Shown: piece after piece, positions 498-10,689 of the stretch
Position numbering within the stretch: position 1 is the stretch's first letter
How the letters are laid out: each line of letters starts with the position of its first letter
DNA from: a virus
Virus genome (UHGV): UHGV-0361391
Length of the DNA: 10,689 nt
Reading direction: 5' to 3' (one strand)
Notes under the pieces: model-generated
Told to the model about the DNA's origin: nothing
Seen by the model: only the letters and a program-made list of their open reading frames with translations
The model's database searches: none
Program-made: the position numbers and the translations under genes

Positions 498-1109
498 TTA
501 ACCAACAACATTTTTCTTTACTGTCACTGCCCCTGATTCCTGGGTGGCGTTATTGCTCGAGTTGTACTTCTCAATAACGCGCAAAATCTCTTTGTCTGTT
601 TCTTCACTTCCCGCCATTCCTATCTTTATTGCATTTTTTAGTACGGGACGTAATGGCAAGGCATCAATGATGCTTTCTACCGCATCCTGGCTGATTGTAG
701 ATGTATTCATTGCTGCCAGCCTGACAAGGTTGTTAGTACCTTCTCGCCTGATGAATGTAAGGATTAATTGCTTCTCTTGGGGGCTTAGAGAGCTAAGCGC
801 CTGATCAATACCCGAACCTGAATCGCAATTTTTTTCGATTTTTCCGCATTCATCTTCGTTCTTGCCTGTGGCCAACCATTCGAGTGAACAATTACAGGCT
901 TTAGCTATTAAGGCCAGTTTATCCAAAGGAGGGAAGTTTTTCCCCTTCCTGTAATTTCTTACTGTGGCTTCAGATAGTCCACAAAGGGTCGCCAGTTCGA
1001 CGTTTGTCATGTTTCCCATAGCCATAGCTAAGCGTTCTGAAAATCGGTTTATTCCTTCCATATCAATAAACCGTTCCGCACTGGATACGGTTTTTTCTGC
1101 CTTATCCAT
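498..1109 (-). CDS. XRE-family helix-turn-helix transcriptional repressor (prophage immunity repressor candidate, Mu c position)
   Basis: 203-aa ORF with an N-terminal HTH_XRE-like segment (NMTNVELATLCGLSEATVRNYRKGKNFPPLDKLALIAKACNCSLEWL). It is transcribed toward the left end, divergent from ner, as Mu c is. RBS AGGGGG lies 4 nt upstream of the ATG. Confidence 0.8.
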   Translation of the reverse strand: MDKAEKTVSSAERFIDMEGINRFSERLAMAMGNMTNVELATLCGLSEATVRNYRKGKNFPPLDKLALIAKACNCSLEWLATGKNEDECGKIEKNCDSGSGIDQALSSLSPQEKQLILTFIRREGTNNLVRLAAMNTSTISQDAVESIIDALPLRPVLKNAIKIGMAGSEETDKEILRVIEKYNSSNNATQESGAVTVKKNVVG

Positions 1110-1542: not shown

Positions 1543-2967
1543 ATGTGGGTAACAGCAAAAGAATGTGTTGGTCTTCCTGATTTACCAATGATGGAACATA
1601 ACATTCGCCATCGACTCACAAAAGCAGCTGCGGGAAATGCAGCCATGTTACGCAAACGTAAGGGGACAAAAGCAATCGAATTTAATATCGATTGTTTGCC
1701 TTCTGGCGCGCAACAAGTATTGCGTGAACGTTATGCCCTTCAACTGATGACGCAAAAAGCTGATGAATCACCGGCTCCGGTGGTGACAAAGGCCAGACGC
1801 TCATCTGCCGTGGTTGATGCGGTGGAGGCATATCGCGGATCACCACAACTGATGCTCGAACGCCTCAATGCCCTGACTGAAAACCAGCGCCAGGTGGCTG
1901 ATGCACGAATCGCGATCGTCAGCGAAGTTCTGAAAGTCGCGCAACAACCTGGTTTCAGCTGTGCGAAGGCTATCCGGTTTATCGTTGACAACCTGGCACG
2001 TTCGCAACTGAACGAGCGCATTGTGGCAATGGTTGAGACGGCGAACGCCAAAAAGGGAAACAGCCGTGCGTTGAGTGAAATCACGCTGAAACGCTGGATT
2101 GCAGCCTTTAACAAGGCGCAGAACGCCGCTGAACGCCTGCTTTTGCTGGCACCTGGTAAGCGCCAGGAAATAAAAGCCGAAGATATTAACTGGCTGCCCG
2201 AATTTCTGGCGCAGTATCGCCAGTCAAACGGCCGACCAATGACCGAGGCTTACGAGGATTTTGTCGCTGAATGGCAGTACCGGCACGCTGATGAGCCTTA
2301 TATGCTCGATATCATGCCGTCTTATGACACCATTCGCCGCGCAATGAAGAAACTGCCGGAAGTGGTGAAACAAAAAGGCCGGGTGACCGGCAGTGAATAC
2401 CGCCAGCTTGAGGGATTCACGCGCCGCGACTGGTCCAGAATGCCGGTGAATTATGTCTGGATTGGTGGCTCCGGGGATGCACAGATGGTCAGCAATATGT
2501 TTGTGGCAAAAACCGGCTCTGTCGGTGCACAGGCGGATTACAGTGGCCCGGCCTGGTATCTGCTCGACTGCTCCCGCGCGGTAAAACCGCTGATTTACCA
2601 GGATCGCCGCAAGGCCGAACTGGTTGCCCAGACAAAAGTCGATGAAGGCCGTGCGTTTACTGATAACGAGTTTGTGTTCGGTGCTTCCGCCCGTCGCAAT
2701 GTGGGCTACGGCTTCTGGCAGATGGCCTACATGATGCAGTCACCGCTGACGCTGGATGCGCTGTGGCACGGCTGGTCAGCCATGCGTGACTTTAAGGCTG
2801 ACGGTGGCCGCAAACTCGGCATCAAACCCACCCATATTGTTGTCCCCACTTCGCTGGAAAAACAGGCGGTGCAGCTGCTGGAGCGCGAGCTGTTCGCGGA
2901 CGGTAACGCCACAGTCTCTAACGAGATGAAGGGCAAGCTGGAGCTGGTTGTCGCGGATTATCTGTAA
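1543..2967 (+). CDS. Chimeric ORF: Mu transposase A-like N-terminal DNA-binding region (about aa 1-310) fused in frame to a Mu gpT-like major head subunit C-terminal region; transposase catalytic core absent
   Basis: The N-terminus MWVTAKECVGLPDLP...GTKAIEFNIDCLP parallels MuA MELWVSPKECANLPGLP...GKAIEYNANSLP (domain I-alpha), and similarity continues to about NYVWIGGSGD (compare MuA QWINGDGY around D269). The remainder (WYLLDCSRAVKPLIYQ...RRNVGYGFWQMAYMM...IVVPTSLEKQAVQLL) does not resemble the MuA core and sits immediately upstream of the DUF1320 gene, where Mu encodes T. Confidence 0.6.
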   Translation: MWVTAKECVGLPDLPMMEHNIRHRLTKAAAGNAAMLRKRKGTKAIEFNIDCLPSGAQQVLRERYALQLMTQKADESPAPVVTKARRSSAVVDAVEAYRGSPQLMLERLNALTENQRQVADARIAIVSEVLKVAQQPGFSCAKAIRFIVDNLARSQLNERIVAMVETANAKKGNSRALSEITLKRWIAAFNKAQNAAERLLLLAPGKRQEIKAEDINWLPEFLAQYRQSNGRPMTEAYEDFVAEWQYRHADEPYMLDIMPSYDTIRRAMKKLPEVVKQKGRVTGSEYRQLEGFTRRDWSRMPVNYVWIGGSGDAQMVSNMFVAKTGSVGAQADYSGPAWYLLDCSRAVKPLIYQDRRKAELVAQTKVDEGRAFTDNEFVFGASARRNVGYGFWQMAYMMQSPLTLDALWHGWSAMRDFKADGGRKLGIKPTHIVVPTSLEKQAVQLLERELFADGNATVSNEMKGKLELVVADYL

Positions 2968-3786: not shown

Positions 3787-4347
3787 TTACGGAAACCGAA
3801 CAGGCATATATCACCCGTATTCGTGAGTATTTCGGGAATGAACTGGTGTCTGTTGACACACATCCCGGCGACTGGAGCGACAGCGTGCTGCGCACCATGC
3901 TGATTAACGCCCCGGCTATCCTGGACGGGTAAACAGCTGCTTGCCGAGCGTTTCCCTGACACGTCGCGCCTGCTGCTGGAAGACTGGGAGCGTTATCTCG
4001 GGCTTCCCGAGTGTGATATGGCCGGAGCCACCCTCACGGAGCGACAGCGTTATGCCGGCAATAAATACCGGATGAAGCCCTCGCTGAACCGTGAATTTTA
4101 TATCCGGTTTGCGGCGGAGTTTGGTTATCAGATTGACATTCAGCCCTCACCGGATTCGCAGTGGGTCAGTATTGTCACGATTAACAGTGAAACCGGCTAC
4201 CGGAATATGAATGTGCTGGATGATATTCTCACGCCGCTGCGTATTTATGAAGGCAGTGCGCTGGAATGTATTCTGAACCGTTATAAGCCTGCATGGCAGA
4301 CGTTTATTTACGTTTATGCAAACAGCCATGAAGAGGAGACTATTTAA
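3783..4347 (+). pseudogene. DUF2313-family phage tail protein (Mu gp48-like), disrupted by a +1 frameshift near 3928-3930
   Basis: Frame 0 gives MITETEQ...INAPAILDG then a stop at 3930-3932; frame +1, open from 3904, continues KQLLAERFPDTSRLLLEDWERYLGLPE... to 4347 and carries the conserved DUF2313 FPDT...L..WER.LGLP motif. Removing one G from the GGG run would give a single ~188-aa protein. Confidence 0.65.
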
Positions 4348-5865: not shown

Positions 5866-6118
5866 ATACAGGCAAGGGGTTTCTGAAATAACGCATATTT
5901 TCAGATGCTGACCGCAGCGTCATGAATCGTTAAATCAATTATAAGCCGGTAATATGCGGTTATCGTATTGGCCTGTCCATCCTTTGTCGTTATGTTCCTG
6001 CCTAACCGGCTCCGTCACAAAAAGTACCGTGATGCTTTTTTTGAATTTCCGCAAAACACATATTTATCAGCGGTTGTTATTCTGACTCTGTTTAATTCAG
6101 AAACAGGCAGAAAAGACG

Positions 6119-8173
6119 ATGTCAGACTCCAAGTGGAAAATGCTCTCCGCCATGCCCGGAGAGTTTTCAGTCAAGGTTGCCGGTGGCACGGTGGCATTTA
6201 TTGAAAGCCCTTTCCGCCCTTCGGGTAATAAAGGGGGGATCACCTTCGCAGACTGCGTGATCCGCTTCAGCACGAAAGAGCCATTATGGGTAATGCCGGT
6301 ATCCGGTAATCCCAGTGCAGAAATCACCAGTTCAGGCGTGACTGGCATCATTCCAATCACATCTGACGTGGCCGGAACGCTCACGCCCTCCGACTGGAAT
6401 GCACCGGATAACGCCGGGCCTTCCGGTAGCACGAATGGCAGCAGTTCAGAGCCGGAATATTACTTTGTTGTCATTCTCGCGGGTCAGTCAAATGGCATGG
6501 CCTACGGCGAGGGGCTGCCGTTACCGGATTCGTTTGACCGCCCGGACCCACGCATTAAGCAACTGGCACGCCGCAGTACGGTAACGCCCAACGGTACGTC
6601 GTGTACATACAACGACATCATTCCGGCAGACCACTGCCTGCATGATGTTCAGGATATGAGCGGGATAAACCACCCGAAAGCTGATCTGGCAAAAGGCCAG
6701 TACGGGACTGTCGGTCAGGGGTTGCATATTGCCAAAAAACTGCTTCCCTATATCCCACAGAATGCGGGGATACTTCTGGTGCCCTGTTGTCGTGGCGGGT
6801 CAGCATTCACCACTGGAGCCGACGGCTCATTCAGTGAGGCCAGCGGTGCTTCCGCTGATTCTTCACGCTGGGGGGCCGGTAAACCTCTGTATCAGGACCT
6901 GGTAAGCCGCACCAAAGTCGCGCTGGCGAAAAACCCGAAAAACAAACTTCTGGCTGTGGTCTGGATGCAGGGAGAGGCAGACCTTGCCTCAGGAAGCCAG
7001 CAGCATAATAGTTTATTCACGGCCATGGTTCAGCAGTTCAGAACTGACCTGGCTCCGCTTGCTGCGCAGTGCGTGAGTGGAAATGCCACCACGGTGCCGT
7101 GGATTTGCGGTGATACCACGTATTACTGGAAAAACGCTGGCACCGATAAATATGAGGCAGTATACGGTGGCTACAAAGGCAAGGAAGCACAGAAAATTTT
7201 CTTTGTACCGTTCCTGACGGATGAGAATGGACAGAGCACGCCAACGAATGCTCCGGCGGAAGACCCGGATATTGTGGCTGTCGGGTATTACGGTGCAGCA
7301 TCCCGAACCCAGGGCAGTTTTGTTTCGACACAGCGTGACAGCCATTTCAGCTCATGGGCACGCAGGGGCGTCATTTCAGACCGTCTGGCCTCAGCTATTA
7401 TGCTCCATGCAGGGCGCACGGCTGAACTGATGCGCGGGCAGACCGTGACACCACCGGATGAGAAGCCGTCACCTGATACACCATCAAAACCGTCCACGCC
7501 ACCCGCAGACACCACGACGATGAGTACGCTATTTGCTTACCGGGCATCTGAGTCTGAAGGACGGTTGACACCACAGGGTTGGGCTGCCGGAGGTGGCAAG
7601 GCTCAAATCGTGGATGATGCCGGAGCCAGCGGGGGTAAGGCAATGAAACTGACCAAGGAAACAGGAAGAGCCCCCTGGTACCTTGAGCATGATGCTGGTA
7701 ATGGTGCGGACCTGCTGGGTAAAGGTGGTCTTGTCAGTTGTCGTTTTAAACTCGATGGCGCGCTTACGGCTAATCAGTACGCACTGGCGCTGTACTGGCC
7801 GGTTTCTGCCCTGCCGCAAGGGGTTACTCTGGAAGGAAATGCCGGTCATAACCTGCTGGCATCGTTCTACGTACAGAGCGATGCCACAGACCTTAACGTG
7901 ATGTATCACAAAGGAAACACGGCGCAGAACACGAAGCTGGGGTCATTCGGCGCATTTAATAACGAATGGCATACGCTGGGCTTCCGTTTTGCCGGTAACA
8001 ACAGTATTGAGGTGACGCCGGTCATTGATGGTAAGGACGGGACACCATTCATGCTGTCGCAGTCTCCGGTCGGCACGTTTACGGCAGACAAGTTGCGCGT
8101 GACCGATATCACTAAAAATGCGACTTACCCGGTACTGATTGACAGTATCGTGGTGGAAGTGAATAACGCGTAA
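6119..8173 (+). CDS. SASA-family carbohydrate esterase (sialate O-acetylesterase-like, NanS-p-like) with Pro/Thr/Ser-rich linker and C-terminal lectin-like beta-sandwich domain
   Basis: 684-aa ORF. The central region carries the SASA/SGNH-type GQSNG motif (FVVILAGQSNGMAYGEG) and a later VVWMQGEAD block. A linker PPDEKPSPDTPSKPSTPPADTTT precedes a ~190-aa C-terminal domain with lectin/LamG-like character. The gene lies downstream of the tail fibre module, as prophage nanS-p genes do. Confidence 0.75.
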   Translation: MSDSKWKMLSAMPGEFSVKVAGGTVAFIESPFRPSGNKGGITFADCVIRFSTKEPLWVMPVSGNPSAEITSSGVTGIIPITSDVAGTLTPSDWNAPDNAGPSGSTNGSSSEPEYYFVVILAGQSNGMAYGEGLPLPDSFDRPDPRIKQLARRSTVTPNGTSCTYNDIIPADHCLHDVQDMSGINHPKADLAKGQYGTVGQGLHIAKKLLPYIPQNAGILLVPCCRGGSAFTTGADGSFSEASGASADSSRWGAGKPLYQDLVSRTKVALAKNPKNKLLAVVWMQGEADLASGSQQHNSLFTAMVQQFRTDLAPLAAQCVSGNATTVPWICGDTTYYWKNAGTDKYEAVYGGYKGKEAQKIFFVPFLTDENGQSTPTNAPAEDPDIVAVGYYGAASRTQGSFVSTQRDSHFSSWARRGVISDRLASAIMLHAGRTAELMRGQTVTPPDEKPSPDTPSKPSTPPADTTTMSTLFAYRASESEGRLTPQGWAAGGGKAQIVDDAGASGGKAMKLTKETGRAPWYLEHDAGNGADLLGKGGLVSCRFKLDGALTANQYALALYWPVSALPQGVTLEGNAGHNLLASFYVQSDATDLNVMYHKGNTAQNTKLGSFGAFNNEWHTLGFRFAGNNSIEVTPVIDGKDGTPFMLSQSPVGTFTADKLRVTDITKNATYPVLIDSIVVEVNNA

Positions 8174-8180
8174 GCAGGAT

Positions 8181-8223
8181 AAAAAAATCCCGCCGGTCAA
8201 AGAGCCATTTGTTGACTGGCGGG
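8181..8223 (-). terminator. Hairpin with adjacent A7/T7 tract, oriented as an intrinsic terminator for leftward transcription
   Basis: CCCGCCGGTCAA (8189-8200) pairs with TTGACTGGCGGG (8212-8223), 12 bp with one G-U pair. AAAAAAA at 8181-8187 gives a U-tract only on the minus-strand transcript. Confidence 0.4.
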
Positions 8224-8338
8224 TGATATTCCAAACCCATTAAGGAAAGCTACAACCTCTGACAAAGAAGACCATTATGTACGCGGTTACTTTTTAGCTG
8301 AAAACTGTTTCTGTAGTCAATATCAAAGGTAAGGTTAT

Positions 8339-8521
8339 ATGACATTTGTTCATACGATGCTGCTTTATTTCTGCACTGTGGTCAGTGCGTTATATCTGGT
8401 GAGCGGTGGTTATAAGGCCATCAGAAATTATGTTCGCCGCAAAATTGATGACGCAGCAGCTGAAAAGCTCAGTAAAACAGCGCAGGCAACTCCGCTCCCA
8501 AAAGACCCGACCCAGCCCTGA
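8339..8521 (+). CDS. Hypothetical small membrane protein (single predicted TM helix)
   Basis: 60-aa ORF with an AAGG RBS; hydrophobic N-terminal segment FVHTMLLYFCTVVSALYLVSGGY followed by a charged tail. Lies in an AT-rich islet. Confidence 0.4.
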   Translation: MTFVHTMLLYFCTVVSALYLVSGGYKAIRNYVRRKIDDAAAEKLSKTAQATPLPKDPTQP

Positions 8522-8556
8522 TTGCAGGGCTGTATTCCCACATAAGGAGGATATAC

Positions 8557-8811
8557 ATGCCAGAGATTAAAGGCACCGTCACTGAAGTCCTGGTAAAACA
8601 GGCACTGTATTCCGGTGAAGTAAATAAATTACTGAAAGCGCAGGTCCGCAAGGATTTTGAGGCACAAATCGACACTTACGTTGATGAAGTGCTGGCAAAA
8701 CTTATTGGGCCAGCAGTTGCGGCCAGTGATGCTGATAATGAGCCGAAAACCGACGCGCAGCCAGAGCAACCAGACCCGGCTCAGCCCGGAACTGACAGTA
8801 CCATGATGTAA
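8557..8811 (+). CDS. Hypothetical protein (helical N-terminus, acidic proline-rich C-terminus)
   Basis: 84-aa ORF preceded by a strong AAGGAGG RBS with 7-nt spacing, followed by a hairpin (AAACCGG...CCGGTTT, 8818-8843). Confidence 0.5.
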   Translation: MPEIKGTVTEVLVKQALYSGEVNKLLKAQVRKDFEAQIDTYVDEVLAKLIGPAVAASDADNEPKTDAQPEQPDPAQPGTDSTMM

Positions 8812-8978
8812 CAATACAAACCGGTGGTGTCCTCTGCCGGTTTGACACTAATGAAAACATCTTTGCCGCTATCCAGCCATATGTAATCGCTGGATAGTAT
8901 TTCGTATTCAGAAATATAGCTGCTTATGGAGCAGTCAATCCTGCTTCCCCATCCGGGCAGGCAAATGAACCGGTATCA

Positions 8979-9272
8979 TTAGTCCGATTCACGCTTTTGT
9001 AGAATCGTTCCCAGAATGCTATACAGCTCATTAGCCTGTTGCTCCATCATTGAGACGGAGGCTATACGGTGCAAAGTGATTTCAGGAGGTGGCACACCTC
9101 CATCTTCTTGCTGTGGAGGAAAAACATAAGATTTAATAAAAAAGTTGAAGCATATGAACTCTCCCGCACTCGAACTGTATTTGCAGGCATCTGAATAATC
9201 GGAAAAATAATCATTATAGATTTCCGCATTTTCAATCATTTTTCGATTTCTCGTCGTTACATGATTGTCCAT
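8979..9272 (-). CDS. Hypothetical protein, unknown function
   Basis: 97-aa minus-strand ORF with an AGAGG RBS 5 nt upstream of the ATG; AT-rich codon usage differs from the surrounding phage genes; divergent from com-mom. Confidence 0.45.
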   Translation of the reverse strand: MDNHVTTRNRKMIENAEIYNDYFSDYSDACKYSSSAGEFICFNFFIKSYVFPPQQEDGGVPPPEITLHRIASVSMMEQQANELYSILGTILQKRESD

Positions 9273-9460
9273 AGCAGCCTCTTACGCTGGCAATTAACCA
9301 ATTGACTTCTATAAATTAGTTGATTTGTTTGCTTTGCGGTATTCAAATGTACAATCATTCAGCACTTATGCGTTACAGCACCGTTTAAAATTAGTGATCA
9401 AACTCATAAATTTTCGCTAATGACATTTCGTGTTATTTGTTGTATCAATTAAATAAATCA

Positions 9461-9485
9461 AATCGATCGTTTTTGTCGATCGATT
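9461..9485. promoter_or_regulatory. Perfect palindrome with two GATC (Dam) sites upstream of com-mom; candidate methylation-sensitive regulatory site
   Basis: AATCGATCG-tttttgt-CGATCGATT (9-bp arms, 7-bp spacer) with GATC at 9465-9468 and 9478-9481, in the AT-rich intergenic region about 45-70 bp upstream of the com start. Phage Mu mom is controlled through clustered GATC sites upstream of its promoter. Confidence 0.45.
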
Positions 9486-9528
9486 GAGTGATAAAGATAT
9501 CAACAACAAAGCAGGAGGTTATGCGGCC

Positions 9529-9729
9529 ATGTATCGAAACATACGGTGCCGACATTGTAACAAGCTACTGGCACGAGCCAGCTTCAGTTATCTGGAAGTC
9601 AAATGTCCGCGCTGTAAAACCCTCAATCAAATCACATCTCAGAGCGCCACAGAGCACCCCACATACACAAGGAAATCCTGTCGTGGGGAACAGAAAGCAA
9701 GTTACATCCCGTATCATCAGCACGCCTGA
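9529..9729 (+). CDS. com: Com-like zinc-finger translational regulator of mom
   Basis: [34 protein letters not shown]... parallels Mu Com MKSIRCKNCNKLLFKADSFDHIEIRCPRCK with the same C-x2-C...C-x2-C spacing. AGGAGG lies 10 nt upstream of this ATG. It overlaps the 5' end of the mom-like ORF as in Mu. Confidence 0.75.
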
Positions 9730-10420
9730 ACTTATTCACTATAACGACAATATCGTCGGTTATGGCTCCCGTGAGTTACGGGTTGAGACAATAAGTTGCT
9801 GGCTGGCCCGGCTGGTCGTCGTCAATAAACATTACAGCCATCGTTTCGTAAATAATTCCTACCTTCATCTGGGCATATTTTCAGAACGGGAGCTGGTTGG
9901 CGTAATGCAATGGGGTTATGCCCTTAATCCAAACAATGGTGCACGCGTCGTAACTGGCACGCAGAACCGCGAATATATGGAGCTTAACCGGTTATGGCTG
10001 CATGACTGTATGCCGAGAAACTCCGAATCAAGGGCAATCAGTTACGCGCTCAAACTAATCAGACAACTTTATCCGCAGGTGCAGTGGGTTCAGTCGTTTG
10101 CAGATGAGCGTTGTGGCTGTCTTGGTGTCGTGTACCAGGCAAGCAATTTTGATTATGTAGGCAGTCATGAAACAACATTCTATGAACTTGATGGCGAGTG
10201 GTATCACGAGATTTGCAAGAATGCAATCAAACGAGGAGGACAGCGAGGTGAACATCTGCGGGCTAATATCGACAGAGCCAGTGTTCATAAATTCCGTCAG
10301 TTTCGTTACATCCGGTTTCTGGACAAGAGAGCCAGAAAACGCCTTAACACAAAGCTATTCAAAGTCCAGCCTTACCCAAAACCACAAACAGTTAAAACTG
10401 GTTTGAAAGAGAGTGAATGA
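9683..10420 (+). CDS. mom: Mom-like DNA modification protein; start uncertain (candidate GTG at 9683, alternative ATG at 9905)
   Basis: Long ORF in the +1 frame relative to com and overlapping its 3' end, at the extreme right end of the element. Size from the GTG (245 aa) is close to Mu Mom (231 aa). AAGGA lies 9 nt upstream of the GTG. Confidence 0.6.
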
Positions 10421-10548
10421 ACGCTTAAAAACTCATTCTAAAACTCAAAAGAAAAGCGCCGATTTAGTATCAAATAAGTTGCGTATCGGCGTTTTTCAGC
10501 GGTATCAAATGAAATGCAAATCGGTATCAAAAAAATCGCCGCGCTATA
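10421..10548. repeat. Right end (attR-like) with three putative transposase-binding repeats in inverted orientation
   Basis: GTATCAAA cores at 10467-10474, 10502-10509 and 10524-10531 (reverse complements TTTGATACTAA, TTTGATACCGCT, TTTGATACCGAT). The innermost-to-terminus spacing (17 bp) equals that at the left end, and the sites are closely packed as Mu R1-R3 are. Confidence 0.6.
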
Positions 10549-10552
10549 CTCA
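10549..10552. repeat. Right copy of CTCA direct repeat flanking the inserted element (putative target-site duplication)
   Basis: Identical to 138-141 and in the same codon phase of the interrupted IS transposase. Confidence 0.5.
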
Positions 10553-10689
10553 GGCTCTCATTTTTCAGCGTTCCCCAGAAGCTTTCCATCGGAGCGTTGT
10601 CGTAACAGTTACCTTTACGCGACATTGATGTTTTCAGACCAAACTGCTCCTGTATGACCCGGTAATCGTATGCGCAGTACTGTGAACCT
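10549..10689 (-). mobile_element. IS3-family insertion sequence fragment: internal part of transposase orfB (DDE domain region), truncated by the insertion; gene continues past window end
   Basis: Minus-strand translation of 10688->10549 reads GSQYCAYDYRVIQEQFGLKTSMSRKGNCYDNAPMESFWGTLKNESLS, the conserved IS3-family catalytic-domain block (SMSRKGNC.DNAPMESFFGTLK). The frame then runs into element sequence and stops. Confidence 0.8.

What the first reader, a model, noticed from the sequence alone, without database searches (positions are those of the whole stretch)
8230..9500. AT-rich islet of three small unassigned genes between the esterase and com-mom
Two co-directional small ORFs (60 aa with one predicted TM helix; 84 aa with a strong AAGGAGG RBS) face a 97-aa minus-strand ORF, separated by hairpins at 8818-8843 and 8863-8887. 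The region is visibly more AT-rich than the phage backbone, and none of the three products matches a family I can name. In Mu this position holds gin; in many prophages the equivalent slot carries exclusion, toxin-antitoxin or anti-defence morons. The minus-strand gene has its own RBS and an AT-rich upstream region shared divergently with com-mom.
Basis: seen in the sequence. Interest (0 to 1): 0.55.

Follow-up and report, generated by a model that had tools for sequence, protein, structure and literature searches.

The report
Esterase-cassette tail plus a swappable orphan gene
The three small genes are real, but they are not one unit: two are the already catalogued, function-unknown companions of a phage sialic-acid esterase also found in Shiga-toxin phages, and the third is a rare orphan gene in a swappable slot next to the phage's anti-restriction genes.

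Summary
All three ORFs are genuine, conserved coding genes. The "islet", however, is the junction of two independent modules in the right end of a deleted E. coli Mu-like prophage.

ORF1 (8339-8521) is Pfam DUF1378 and ORF2 (8557-8811) is DUF826. In 80 of 80 IMG/VR loci carrying DUF1378, a NanS-p-type esterase lies directly upstream wherever the contig reaches, and DUF826 lies downstream in 79. This holds in Mu-like prophages (com/mom follows) and in lambdoid Stx prophages (holin/endolysin follows). The esterase-ORF1 spacer also holds a conserved minus-strand sRNA-like unit. By position and layout it matches the EPEC sRNAs PasC/PasA.

ORF3 (8979-9272, minus strand) is the cargo of a 574-bp cassette (8846-9419). 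That cassette is one of at least five alternative fillings of a variable slot bounded by hairpin 8817-8844 and the conserved com-mom control region. It occurs in only 18 of 5426 complete E. coli genomes. It belongs to a small Enterobacterales prophage family with no Pfam, PHROG, PADLOC or PDB relative and no reproducible fold match.

No toxin-antitoxin or defence assignment is supported, and function remains unknown. Modest interest: a new member of known kinds (moron slot, known DUF cassette).

The parts
6119..8173 (+). NanS-p-type sialate O-acetylesterase (SASA + DUF6645; N-terminal ~105 aa without DUF1737); head gene of the cassette
   Evidence: Pfam SASA 1.5e-13 and DUF6645 7e-68. 66% identical to VT2-Sakai NanS-p over residues 94-683.
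8181..8320 (-). sRNA-like unit: -35 TTGACT 8320-8315, 18-bp spacer, TAAAAA 8296-8291, variable body, terminator stem 8223-8189 and U run 8187-8181. Positional and architectural counterpart of PasC/PasA.
   Evidence: TTGAC, TAAAA and the A-run plus GC hairpin are invariant or nearly so in 33 distinct spacers from 91 loci. All variants but one (PP2 module 1, where the fixed fold window missed the stem) fold as canonical minus-strand terminators. Layout matches PasC/PasA of E2348/69. No Rfam hit. Expression not shown.
8339..8521 (+). ORF1: DUF1378, 60-aa single-pass membrane protein (TM 3-21, basic C-terminal tail, pI 9.5)
   Evidence: Pfam 119.8 bits against a cut-off of 25. phrog_494. dN/dS 0.1-0.3. 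Hydropathy and pI.
8513..8532 (+). 8-bp hairpin spanning the ORF1 stop codon (Mu-like branch only)
8557..8811 (+). ORF2: DUF826, 84-aa acidic protein (pI 4.3), conserved N-terminal ~50 aa plus a Pro/acidic tail ending MM; RBS AAGGAGG at 8544-8550
   Evidence: Pfam 54.6 bits against a cut-off of 25. phrog_311 1e-26. dN/dS 0.07-0.39, mostly 0.1-0.25. Alignment A6.
8817..8844 (.). Hairpin 1: conserved left boundary of the variable slot (end of the esterase cassette)
   Evidence: -16.7 kcal/mol, z -3.0. The first 32-34 nt after the DUF826 stop were the only left-flank match found with slot types C, D and E; no left-flank match was returned for type B.
8846..9419 (-). ORF3 cassette: variable cargo of the DUF826-to-com slot (type A of at least 5)
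   Evidence: Slot clustering and breakpoints. Present in 18 of 5426 complete E. coli genomes. GC 0.395.
8868..8898 (.). Hairpin 2, about 80 nt downstream of the ORF3 stop; probable ORF3 3' structure or terminator
   Evidence: Minus strand -16.6 kcal/mol, z -3.7. Lies inside the variable cassette.
8979..9272 (-). ORF3: 97-aa acidic (pI 4.7) orphan protein; predicted beta-meander plus C-terminal helix
   Evidence: dN/dS 0.33-0.37.
9273..9419 (-). ORF3 upstream region, cargo-specific, GC 0.35; about 94% conserved between two alleles whose coding parts differ by 13%. No conserved sigma-70 consensus found.
9420..9528 (+). Conserved com-mom control region (right boundary of the slot) with GATC palindromes at 9461-9485
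   Evidence: 87-92% identical in all slot types. GATC cluster aligns with the Mu mom regulatory region.
9529..10420 (+). com (9529-9729) and mom (9683-10420)
   Evidence: Pfam Zn_ribbon_Com 1e-12 and Mom 1.6e-77. RefSeq annotation of the identical locus.

Best explanation
The region is the junction of two independent mobile modules.

(1) ORF1 (DUF1378) and ORF2 (DUF826) are the distal genes of an esterase cassette. Its order is esterase, a minus-strand PasC/PasA-type sRNA gene, DUF1378, DUF826, then a hairpin. The same cassette sits between stx/pR' and the holin gene in lambdoid Stx prophages.
Shown: strict linkage and gene order in both phage types, purifying selection, a TM helix in ORF1, and opposite net charges (ORF1 +3.6, ORF2 -7.5).
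Inferred: the two genes have no conserved promoter of their own, and the hairpin after the esterase terminates only minus-strand transcripts. They are therefore probably made by read-through from the esterase gene, that is, late in lytic growth. ORF1 probably inserts N-out/C-in in the inner membrane, and its basic tail may bind acidic ORF2.
My best guess for the role (about 0.25-0.3) is a membrane step that accompanies lysis and release of the signal-less esterase, rather than defence.

(2) ORF3 is the cargo of a 574-bp swap-in cassette in a hypervariable slot bounded by hairpin 1 and the com-mom control region. It is a classical moron.
Shown: at least five alternative cargoes, sharp homology breakpoints, rarity, and antisense orientation.
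Inferred: it is expressed from the prophage and acts by protein binding as a small acidic, probably dimeric, protein. It most likely serves as a superinfection-exclusion or anti-phage factor, or as a counter-defence factor (about 0.25).
For: Family assignment.

Cassette linkage: esterase upstream in 80 of 80 IMG/VR DUF1378 loci where the contig reaches, DUF826 downstream in 79 of 80, with 27 Mu-like and 53 lambdoid contexts. Same order in VT2-Sakai and PhiR5_1. PMC10462455 notes DUF826/DUF1378 ORFs between nanS-p and S.

sRNA unit: compared with the PasA/PasC coordinates in PMC8550237 table S6 and the E2348/69 sequences.

Selection. Charges and TM helix.

Slot variability and breakpoints. Rarity of ORF3.

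ORF3 family and its contexts next to tail fibres, an annotated retron-type RT, and umuDC-type genes (Pfam IMS and Peptidase_S24), and in a P2-like Salmonella prophage beside another SASA/DUF6645 esterase.
Against: No expression data exist for any part. No promoter could be assigned to ORF3: the only sigma-70-like site is not conserved in the second allele.

PADLOC, Pfam, NCBIfam, PHROGs and PDB give no functional clue for any of the three proteins or for the other slot cargoes.

Esterases of E2348/69 prophages work without DUF1378/DUF826, so the pair is not required for esterase function as such.

The IMG/VR sample kept only the best 80 of 324 loci.
Confidence: 0.55

Rival explanations
1. The three genes form one functional islet, such as a toxin-antitoxin or defence module.
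For: They are adjacent and small, and one is a membrane protein.
Against: Their distributions are independent. ORF1-ORF2 occur in 209 complete E. coli genomes in the Mu-like form and in 309 phage records, mostly Stx phages that lack ORF3. ORF3 occurs in 18 genomes. Four other cargoes replace ORF3. ORF3 homologues occur without DUF1378/DUF826. No TA or PADLOC hit.
Confidence: 0.04
2. DUF1378/DUF826 are lysis accessory proteins (holin-, antiholin- or releasin-like modulators) rather than esterase accessories. The esterase is simply their usual upstream neighbour.
For: In lambdoid phages they lie immediately upstream of holin S and endolysin R. ORF1 has holin-like features: small, one TM helix and a charged C-terminus, with an unusually conserved TM sequence containing an SGG motif. 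From memory, not tested here: both Mu and 933W-type phages use SAR endolysins.
Against: In Mu-like prophages the pair stays with the esterase at the right end, between the tail-fibre genes and com-mom. From knowledge of Mu, the lysis genes lie elsewhere; this was not examined here. No similarity to any holin family in Pfam or PHROGs.
Confidence: 0.22
3. ORF1 and the divergent minus-strand sRNA form a type-I toxin-antitoxin-like pair: a small hydrophobic protein plus a divergent sRNA complementary to its 5' leader.
For: The layout resembles divergent type-I loci, with the sRNA -35 only about 20 nt upstream of the ORF1 ATG. ORF1 is a small TM protein.
Against: PasA/PasC-type units occur in prophages without DUF1378. 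At 60 aa with a long hydrophilic tail and a constant partner (DUF826), ORF1 is atypical for a type-I toxin. The sRNA would not cover the RBS.
Confidence: 0.07
4. ORF3 is a divergently transcribed regulator of com-mom.
For: It shares the intergenic region with com-mom. It is predicted to be a small protein with a beta-sheet plus a C-terminal helix, a layout whose recurring weak structural matches (COMM domains) are dimerisation modules.
Against: Prophages with other cargoes keep the same control region and mom. ORF3 homologues occur in mom-less prophages. The protein is acidic, with only one conserved basic residue.
Confidence: 0.06
5. ORF3 is a decaying or non-functional ORF.
For: The neighbouring slot types are often frameshifted. 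Truncated or IS-disrupted ORF3 copies exist. The prophage in the window is defective.
Against: dN/dS is 0.33-0.37. The SD and start codon are conserved. The family spans several genera at 21-57% identity with constant length.
Confidence: 0.06

Closest known systems
nanS-p to S region of lambdoid Stx prophages (e.g. VT2-Sakai orf42 to S; 933W region downstream of stx2)
   Same: Same gene families and order: SASA/DUF6645 esterase, DUF1378, DUF826. Same A-run plus GC hairpin directly after the esterase stop. Same invariant TTGAC...TAAAA motif on the minus strand. ORF1-ORF2 spacing is 19-40 nt.
   Different: Here the cassette lies at the right end of a Mu-like prophage and is followed by com-mom instead of holin/endolysin. 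The esterase lacks the DUF1737 N-domain. DUF1378 is only 54% and DUF826 about 38% identical. ORF2 has a much stronger RBS. There is no U-tract terminator after DUF826.
PasC/PasA sRNAs of EPEC E2348/69 (EcOnc51/52 in EHEC)
   Same: A minus-strand unit placed directly after the esterase stop. It has a TTGAC -35, a canonical terminator whose U run is the A run after the esterase stop codon, and a variable 5' body.
   Different: The body sequence is unrelated. The -10-like element is TAAAAA at an 18-bp spacing, against GAAAAT further away in PasA/PasC. The setting is Mu-like. Expression and Hfq binding are untested, and there is no Rfam model.
Phage morons and accessory hot spots (HK97/HK022 morons; P2 Z/fun and old/tin hot spots; from my own knowledge)
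   Same: Alternative unrelated cargoes at a fixed position with sharp conserved flanks. Lower GC, opposite orientation to the late genes, and patchy distribution.
   Different: This is the slot between the esterase cassette and Pmom of E. coli Mu-like prophages. No cargo matches a known defence or exclusion protein, and several cargoes are frameshifted.
gin to com/mom region of phage Mu
   Same: Position between the tail-fibre genes and com-mom. The GATC cluster upstream of com is shared.
   Different: There is no gin and no invertible G segment in the window. The esterase cassette and the slot are inserted between the tail-fibre assembly gene and the com-mom control region.
COMM, PC4 and Pur-alpha type beta-sheet plus helix dimer modules

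Membership tests
Pfam DUF1378 (PF07125) | HMM match above the gathering score over the full ~59-aa model | tested here: met
   119.8 bits against 25, model positions 1-58 of 59.
Pfam DUF826 (PF05696) | HMM match above the gathering score | tested here: met
   54.6 bits against 25, model positions 1-58 of 75. phrog_311 1e-26.
NanS-p esterase cassette of lambdoid prophages | SASA/DUF6645 esterase directly followed by DUF1378 then DUF826 | tested here: met
NanS-p esterase cassette of lambdoid prophages | Location in the Q-dependent late operon upstream of holin/endolysin; DUF1737 N-domain on the esterase | tested here: not met
   com-mom follows, tail-fibre genes precede, and the esterase has no DUF1737.
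PasA/PasC sRNA family | Minus-strand gene abutting the esterase stop, with an intrinsic terminator and a TTGAC -35 | tested here: met
PasA/PasC sRNA family | Sequence similarity of the sRNA body or seed | tested here: not met
   Only the promoter and terminator columns are conserved in alignment A9. No Rfam hit.
PasA/PasC sRNA family | Expressed, Hfq-dependent transcript | not testable with these tools
   Needs a Northern blot, RNA-seq or RIL-seq in a strain carrying this prophage.
Known anti-phage defence systems (PADLOC) or toxin-antitoxin families (Pfam/NCBIfam) | Significant match of any of the three proteins to a model of a defence or TA component | tested here: not met
   Only one chance-level hit (PbeC, E 0.015, 12 bits).
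Phage moron | Presence/absence or replacement polymorphism at a fixed site among otherwise collinear phages | tested here: met
   Five slot types with conserved flanks. ORF3 type in 18 of 5426 genomes.
Phage moron | Own promoter and terminator; expression from the repressed prophage | tested here: inconclusive
   Hairpins lie downstream of ORF3. No conserved sigma-70 consensus upstream. Expression is not testable here.
Mu Gin invertase at this position | Serine recombinase gene between the tail-fibre genes and com | tested here: not met
   No resolvase ORF in 5866-9528. Present in Mu and in some related prophages.

The most novel reading that the evidence does not exclude
The DUF826-to-com slot of E. 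coli Mu-like prophages is an unrecognised hypervariable accessory hot spot. Its cargoes would be new single-gene phage-exclusion or counter-defence factors. These cargoes include ORF3, the founder of an un-annotated Enterobacterales prophage protein family, which is also found beside an annotated retron-type RT, umuDC-type genes and tail-fibre genes in other prophages. They might be fed by a leftward promoter in the conserved mom control region.
Probability: 0.18. Interest if true: 0.55.

Novelty: new member of a known kind. Interest (0 to 1): 0.3.

Why it matters
The NanS-p esterase module, studied as a fitness factor of Shiga-toxin phages, turns out to be a self-contained mobile cassette: esterase, antisense sRNA-like unit and two conserved small proteins. 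It has also moved into Mu-like (and, for the esterase, P2-like) prophages. This tells anyone studying NanS-p or the Pas sRNAs that DUF1378 and DUF826 are likely functional partners worth deleting.

The analysis also defines a clean, short, flank-delimited variable slot next to mom. Its cargoes (ORF3 and four others) are easy candidates for phage-resistance or anti-defence screens. None of this is surprising in kind, and no function is established.

Tried and rejected
- Pfam, PHROGs, PADLOC and NCBIfam on all three proteins, on ORF3's operon partners in other genera and on the other slot cargoes gave only DUF or unknown-function families.
- Exhaustive phmmer of ORF3 over 1.84 billion representative proteins found only E. 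coli/Shigella copies. Profile searches enlarged the family to about 33 clusters, none annotated.
- PDB sequence searches with profiles of all three families, and with the 128-aa partner, found nothing meaningful.
- A genome-contig scan with a single DUF1378 sequence found nothing.
- Rfam on the whole window gave no hit.
- Literature searches for 933W/Sakai locus tags and for Mu-like plus nanS-p found nothing relevant.
- AsxR/AgvB anti-sRNAs were considered for the spacer unit and rejected, because they lie upstream of the esterase.
- The predicted ORF3 promoter TTGCCA-18-GACAAT was rejected because it is not conserved in the second allele.
- A link between the DUF6645 domain and the presence of DUF1378/DUF826 was not upheld. 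E2348/69 esterases without the pair also carry a (diverged) DUF6645.
Full report
**Context**

The window is the right part of an E. coli Mu-like prophage. It holds a c-type repressor (498-1109, minus strand) and ner (1266-1532). A 474-aa ORF fuses the MuA DNA-binding N-terminus to the C-terminal half of the major head protein gpT, which marks a large internal deletion. Then come gp36, a partial gp48, a tail fibre, a tail-fibre assembly gene, a SASA/DUF6645 esterase (6119-8173), the three ORFs of the finding, com and mom. A C-terminal fragment of an IS transposase (Pfam rve_3) lies at the right edge. The identical 1.3-kb region occurs in complete Mu-like prophages of other E. coli strains, for example JE86-ST05 inserted in citF.

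**Check of the observation**

- ORF1 matches Pfam DUF1378 (119.8 bits, E 5e-35) and ORF2 matches DUF826 (54.6 bits, E 1e-14). They also match PHROGs 494 and 311, both of unknown function.
- Pairwise dN/dS against diverged alleles is 0.1-0.3 for ORF1, 0.07-0.39 for ORF2 (mostly 0.1-0.25) and 0.33-0.37 for ORF3. For comparison, com and mom give 0-0.15.
- ORF1 has one TM helix (residues 3-21) followed by a basic segment (pI 9.5). ORF2 is acidic (pI 4.3), and ORF3 is acidic (pI 4.7).
- The AAGGAGG before ORF2 is confirmed.
- For ORF3 the 97-aa start is better supported than the 86-aa start annotated by PGAP. The Shine-Dalgarno sequence and ATG 9272 are conserved in the second allele, which lacks the internal Met.
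- Hairpin 1 is at 8817-8844 (-16.7 kcal/mol, 2 of 200 shuffles as good). Hairpin 2 is at 8868-8898, not 8863-8887 (-15.3 kcal/mol, 0 of 200).
- AT-richness holds for ORF3 and its flanks (GC 0.34-0.40) but not for ORF1 and ORF2 (0.48 and 0.50, against a window mean of 0.49).

**ORF1 and ORF2 belong to the esterase**

I collected 80 IMG/VR loci through a DUF1378 alignment.
- A NanS-p-type esterase ends about 150 bp upstream of DUF1378 wherever the contig extends that far.
- DUF826 follows in 79 of the 80 loci.
- 27 loci are Mu-like (com/mom downstream) and 53 are lambdoid (holin S and endolysin R downstream).

VT2-Sakai and PhiR5_1 show the same order, with ORF1-ORF2 spacers of 19-40 nt. A 2023 survey of Stx2a phages mentions DUF826/DUF1378 ORFs between nanS-p and S (PMC10462455). 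So the two genes are not unassigned. They are catalogued domains of unknown function that travel with the esterase. What appears not to have been described in the searchable literature is the presence of the cassette in Mu-like prophages. The converse linkage does not hold: the esterases of E2348/69 prophages PP2 and PP5 lack the pair.

**A minus-strand sRNA-like unit in the esterase-ORF1 spacer**

The hairpin after the esterase stop (8189-8223) is preceded by A7 and not followed by Ts. It is therefore a canonical intrinsic terminator only for the minus strand. In 33 distinct spacers from 91 loci, four elements are invariant or nearly so while the sequence between them varies: the A run, the GC stem, a TTTTA motif and a GTCAA motif. 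Read on the minus strand, this gives TTGAC(N), an 18-bp spacer, TAAAA(N), 45-100 nt of variable body, a terminator and a U7-8 run.

This is the position and layout of PasC and PasA. These are Hfq-dependent sRNAs mapped in EPEC E2348/69 on the strand opposite the esterase (table S6 of PMC8550237; sequences). A 2026 preprint describes the arrangement as esterase-PasA-holin. The minor 236-nt PasA form ends at the esterase-proximal terminator, so a terminator of this type works in vivo.

The body of the window's unit is unrelated in sequence, and Rfam has no model for it. I therefore call it a positional and architectural counterpart, not a member. Its expression is untested.

**ORF3 is a separate, swappable cargo**

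I compared the DNA from the DUF826 stop to the com ATG in 32 loci and found five classes.
- Type A carries ORF3 (717-725 bp, 15 loci).
- Type B carries a 154-aa minus-strand gene with a C-terminal CxxC...CxxC motif, often frameshifted (about 617 bp, 9 loci).
- Type C carries a 78-aa plus-strand ORF and a 68-76-aa minus-strand ORF (851-930 bp, 6 loci).
- Type D carries a 175-201-aa gene with an N-terminal zinc ribbon and a hydrophobic segment (1047 bp, 1 locus).
- Type E is a 460-bp version (1 locus).

BLAST found only two conserved flanks. The last 109 nt (9420-9528, the com-mom control region) match in every slot type. The first 32-34 nt (8812-8845, that is, hairpin 1) match in types C, D and E; no left-flank match was returned for type B. 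The ORF3 cassette is therefore 8846-9419 and includes hairpin 2. It is found in 18 of 5426 complete E. coli genomes, and 15 of those copies are identical across unrelated sources. The ORF1-ORF2 DNA is found in 209 genomes.

**What ORF3 is**

- phmmer over 1.84 billion representative proteins found only E. coli and Shigella copies.
- A weak tblastn hit in phage vB_EcoS-733R5 (29% identity, collinear) seeded profile searches. These recovered about 33 clusters of 98-125-aa proteins in Klebsiella, Enterobacter, Citrobacter, Raoultella, Lelliottia, Pantoea and Salmonella. None has a Pfam domain or a name.
- In Klebsiella and Enterobacter the homologue is the first gene of a three-gene operon (98-107, 81 and 128 aa). 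The operon sits at a prophage end, next to tail fibres, reverse-transcriptase (annotated retron-type in the related phage)/HNH genes or umuDC-type genes.
- In a P2-like Salmonella prophage it is followed by a 126-aa gene with a weak XhlA-like coiled-coil match and a hydrophobic C-terminal segment. It lies next to homologues of the type C cargo and a 765-aa SASA/DUF6645 esterase.
- In the window it stands alone.

**Expression signals of ORF3**

The 147 bp upstream of ORF3 are about 94% conserved between two alleles whose coding parts differ by 13%, which suggests regulatory constraint. However, no sigma-70 consensus is shared by both alleles. Weak leftward promoter-like sites overlap the GATC palindromes in the conserved mom region. 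From memory, Mu has a leftward promoter (momP2) in its mom control region. A similar promoter feeding whatever cargo sits in the slot is an idea I could not test.

**Mechanism and verdict**

The anatomy is well supported: two modules, with defined boundaries and linkage. Function is not.

For ORF1-ORF2, I infer late co-expression with the esterase and a membrane-anchored basic/acidic pair. My best guess is a role in the membrane events that accompany lysis and release of the signal-less esterase. The main rival is a lysis-modulator role independent of the esterase.

For ORF3, I infer a prophage-expressed moron that acts by protein binding, possibly in exclusion or counter-defence. This rests only on its slot behaviour and its neighbourhoods.

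The toxin-antitoxin and defence labels have no support. Overall this is a new member of known kinds, of modest interest.

Noticed in passing
window 8181-8320 (minus strand): Conserved sRNA-like unit between the esterase stop and ORF1: TTGACT, 18-bp spacer, TAAAAA, variable body and a canonical terminator. It matches EPEC PasC/PasA (EHEC EcOnc51/52) in position and layout, and here it sits in a Mu-like prophage.
   Followed up: partly
window 1543-2967: A single 474-aa ORF fuses the MuA N-terminal DNA-binding domain (HTH_Tnp_Mu_1) to the C-terminal half of major head protein gpT. The gp48-like ORF at 4018-4347 is also partial (27 bits, below the cut-off). The prophage in the window is therefore a heavily deleted remnant, whereas JE86-ST05 carries the tail genes.
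   Followed up: partly
window 10529-10688 (minus strand): C-terminal fragment of an IS transposase (rve_3, ...SRKGNCYDNAPMESFWGTLKNE...) about 110 bp after the mom stop, running off the window.
   Followed up: partly
L003 (E. coli DETEC-S792) 7285-8337: In this Mu-like prophage mom is replaced by a DNA cytosine methyltransferase downstream of the same com. The right-end anti-restriction module is itself exchangeable.
   Followed up: no
window 6119-6430; L014 7775-10072: The esterases of Mu-like and P2-like (myovirus) prophages share an N-terminal ~105-aa region instead of the DUF1737 domain of lambdoid NanS-p, and they sit next to tail-fibre genes. This could be a virion-attachment domain, making the esterase tail-associated.
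   Followed up: no
L014 (Salmonella enterica) 6001-7650: A P2-like prophage carries, side by side, an ORF3 homologue (57% identity), a 126-aa partner with a weak XhlA-like match and a hydrophobic C-terminus, and homologues of both type C slot ORFs of the E. coli Mu-like prophages. All lie next to a SASA/DUF6645 esterase, so the slot cargoes circulate together across phage types.
   Followed up: partly
window 8513-8532: A perfect 8-bp hairpin spans the ORF1 stop codon. It is kept, with one compensatory variant, in the Mu-like branch but not in lambdoid cassettes.
   Followed up: partly
window 9488-10420: The mom reading frame is open for 310 codons from 9488 and overlaps all of com in another frame. 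RefSeq starts mom at GTG 9683.
   Followed up: no
L105 (E2348/69 PP2) 2364-2640: PP2 carries two tandem copies of the sRNA module: a PasC-like one abutting the esterase, then PasA. This explains the 236-nt minor PasA form that ends at the esterase-proximal terminator.
   Followed up: partly
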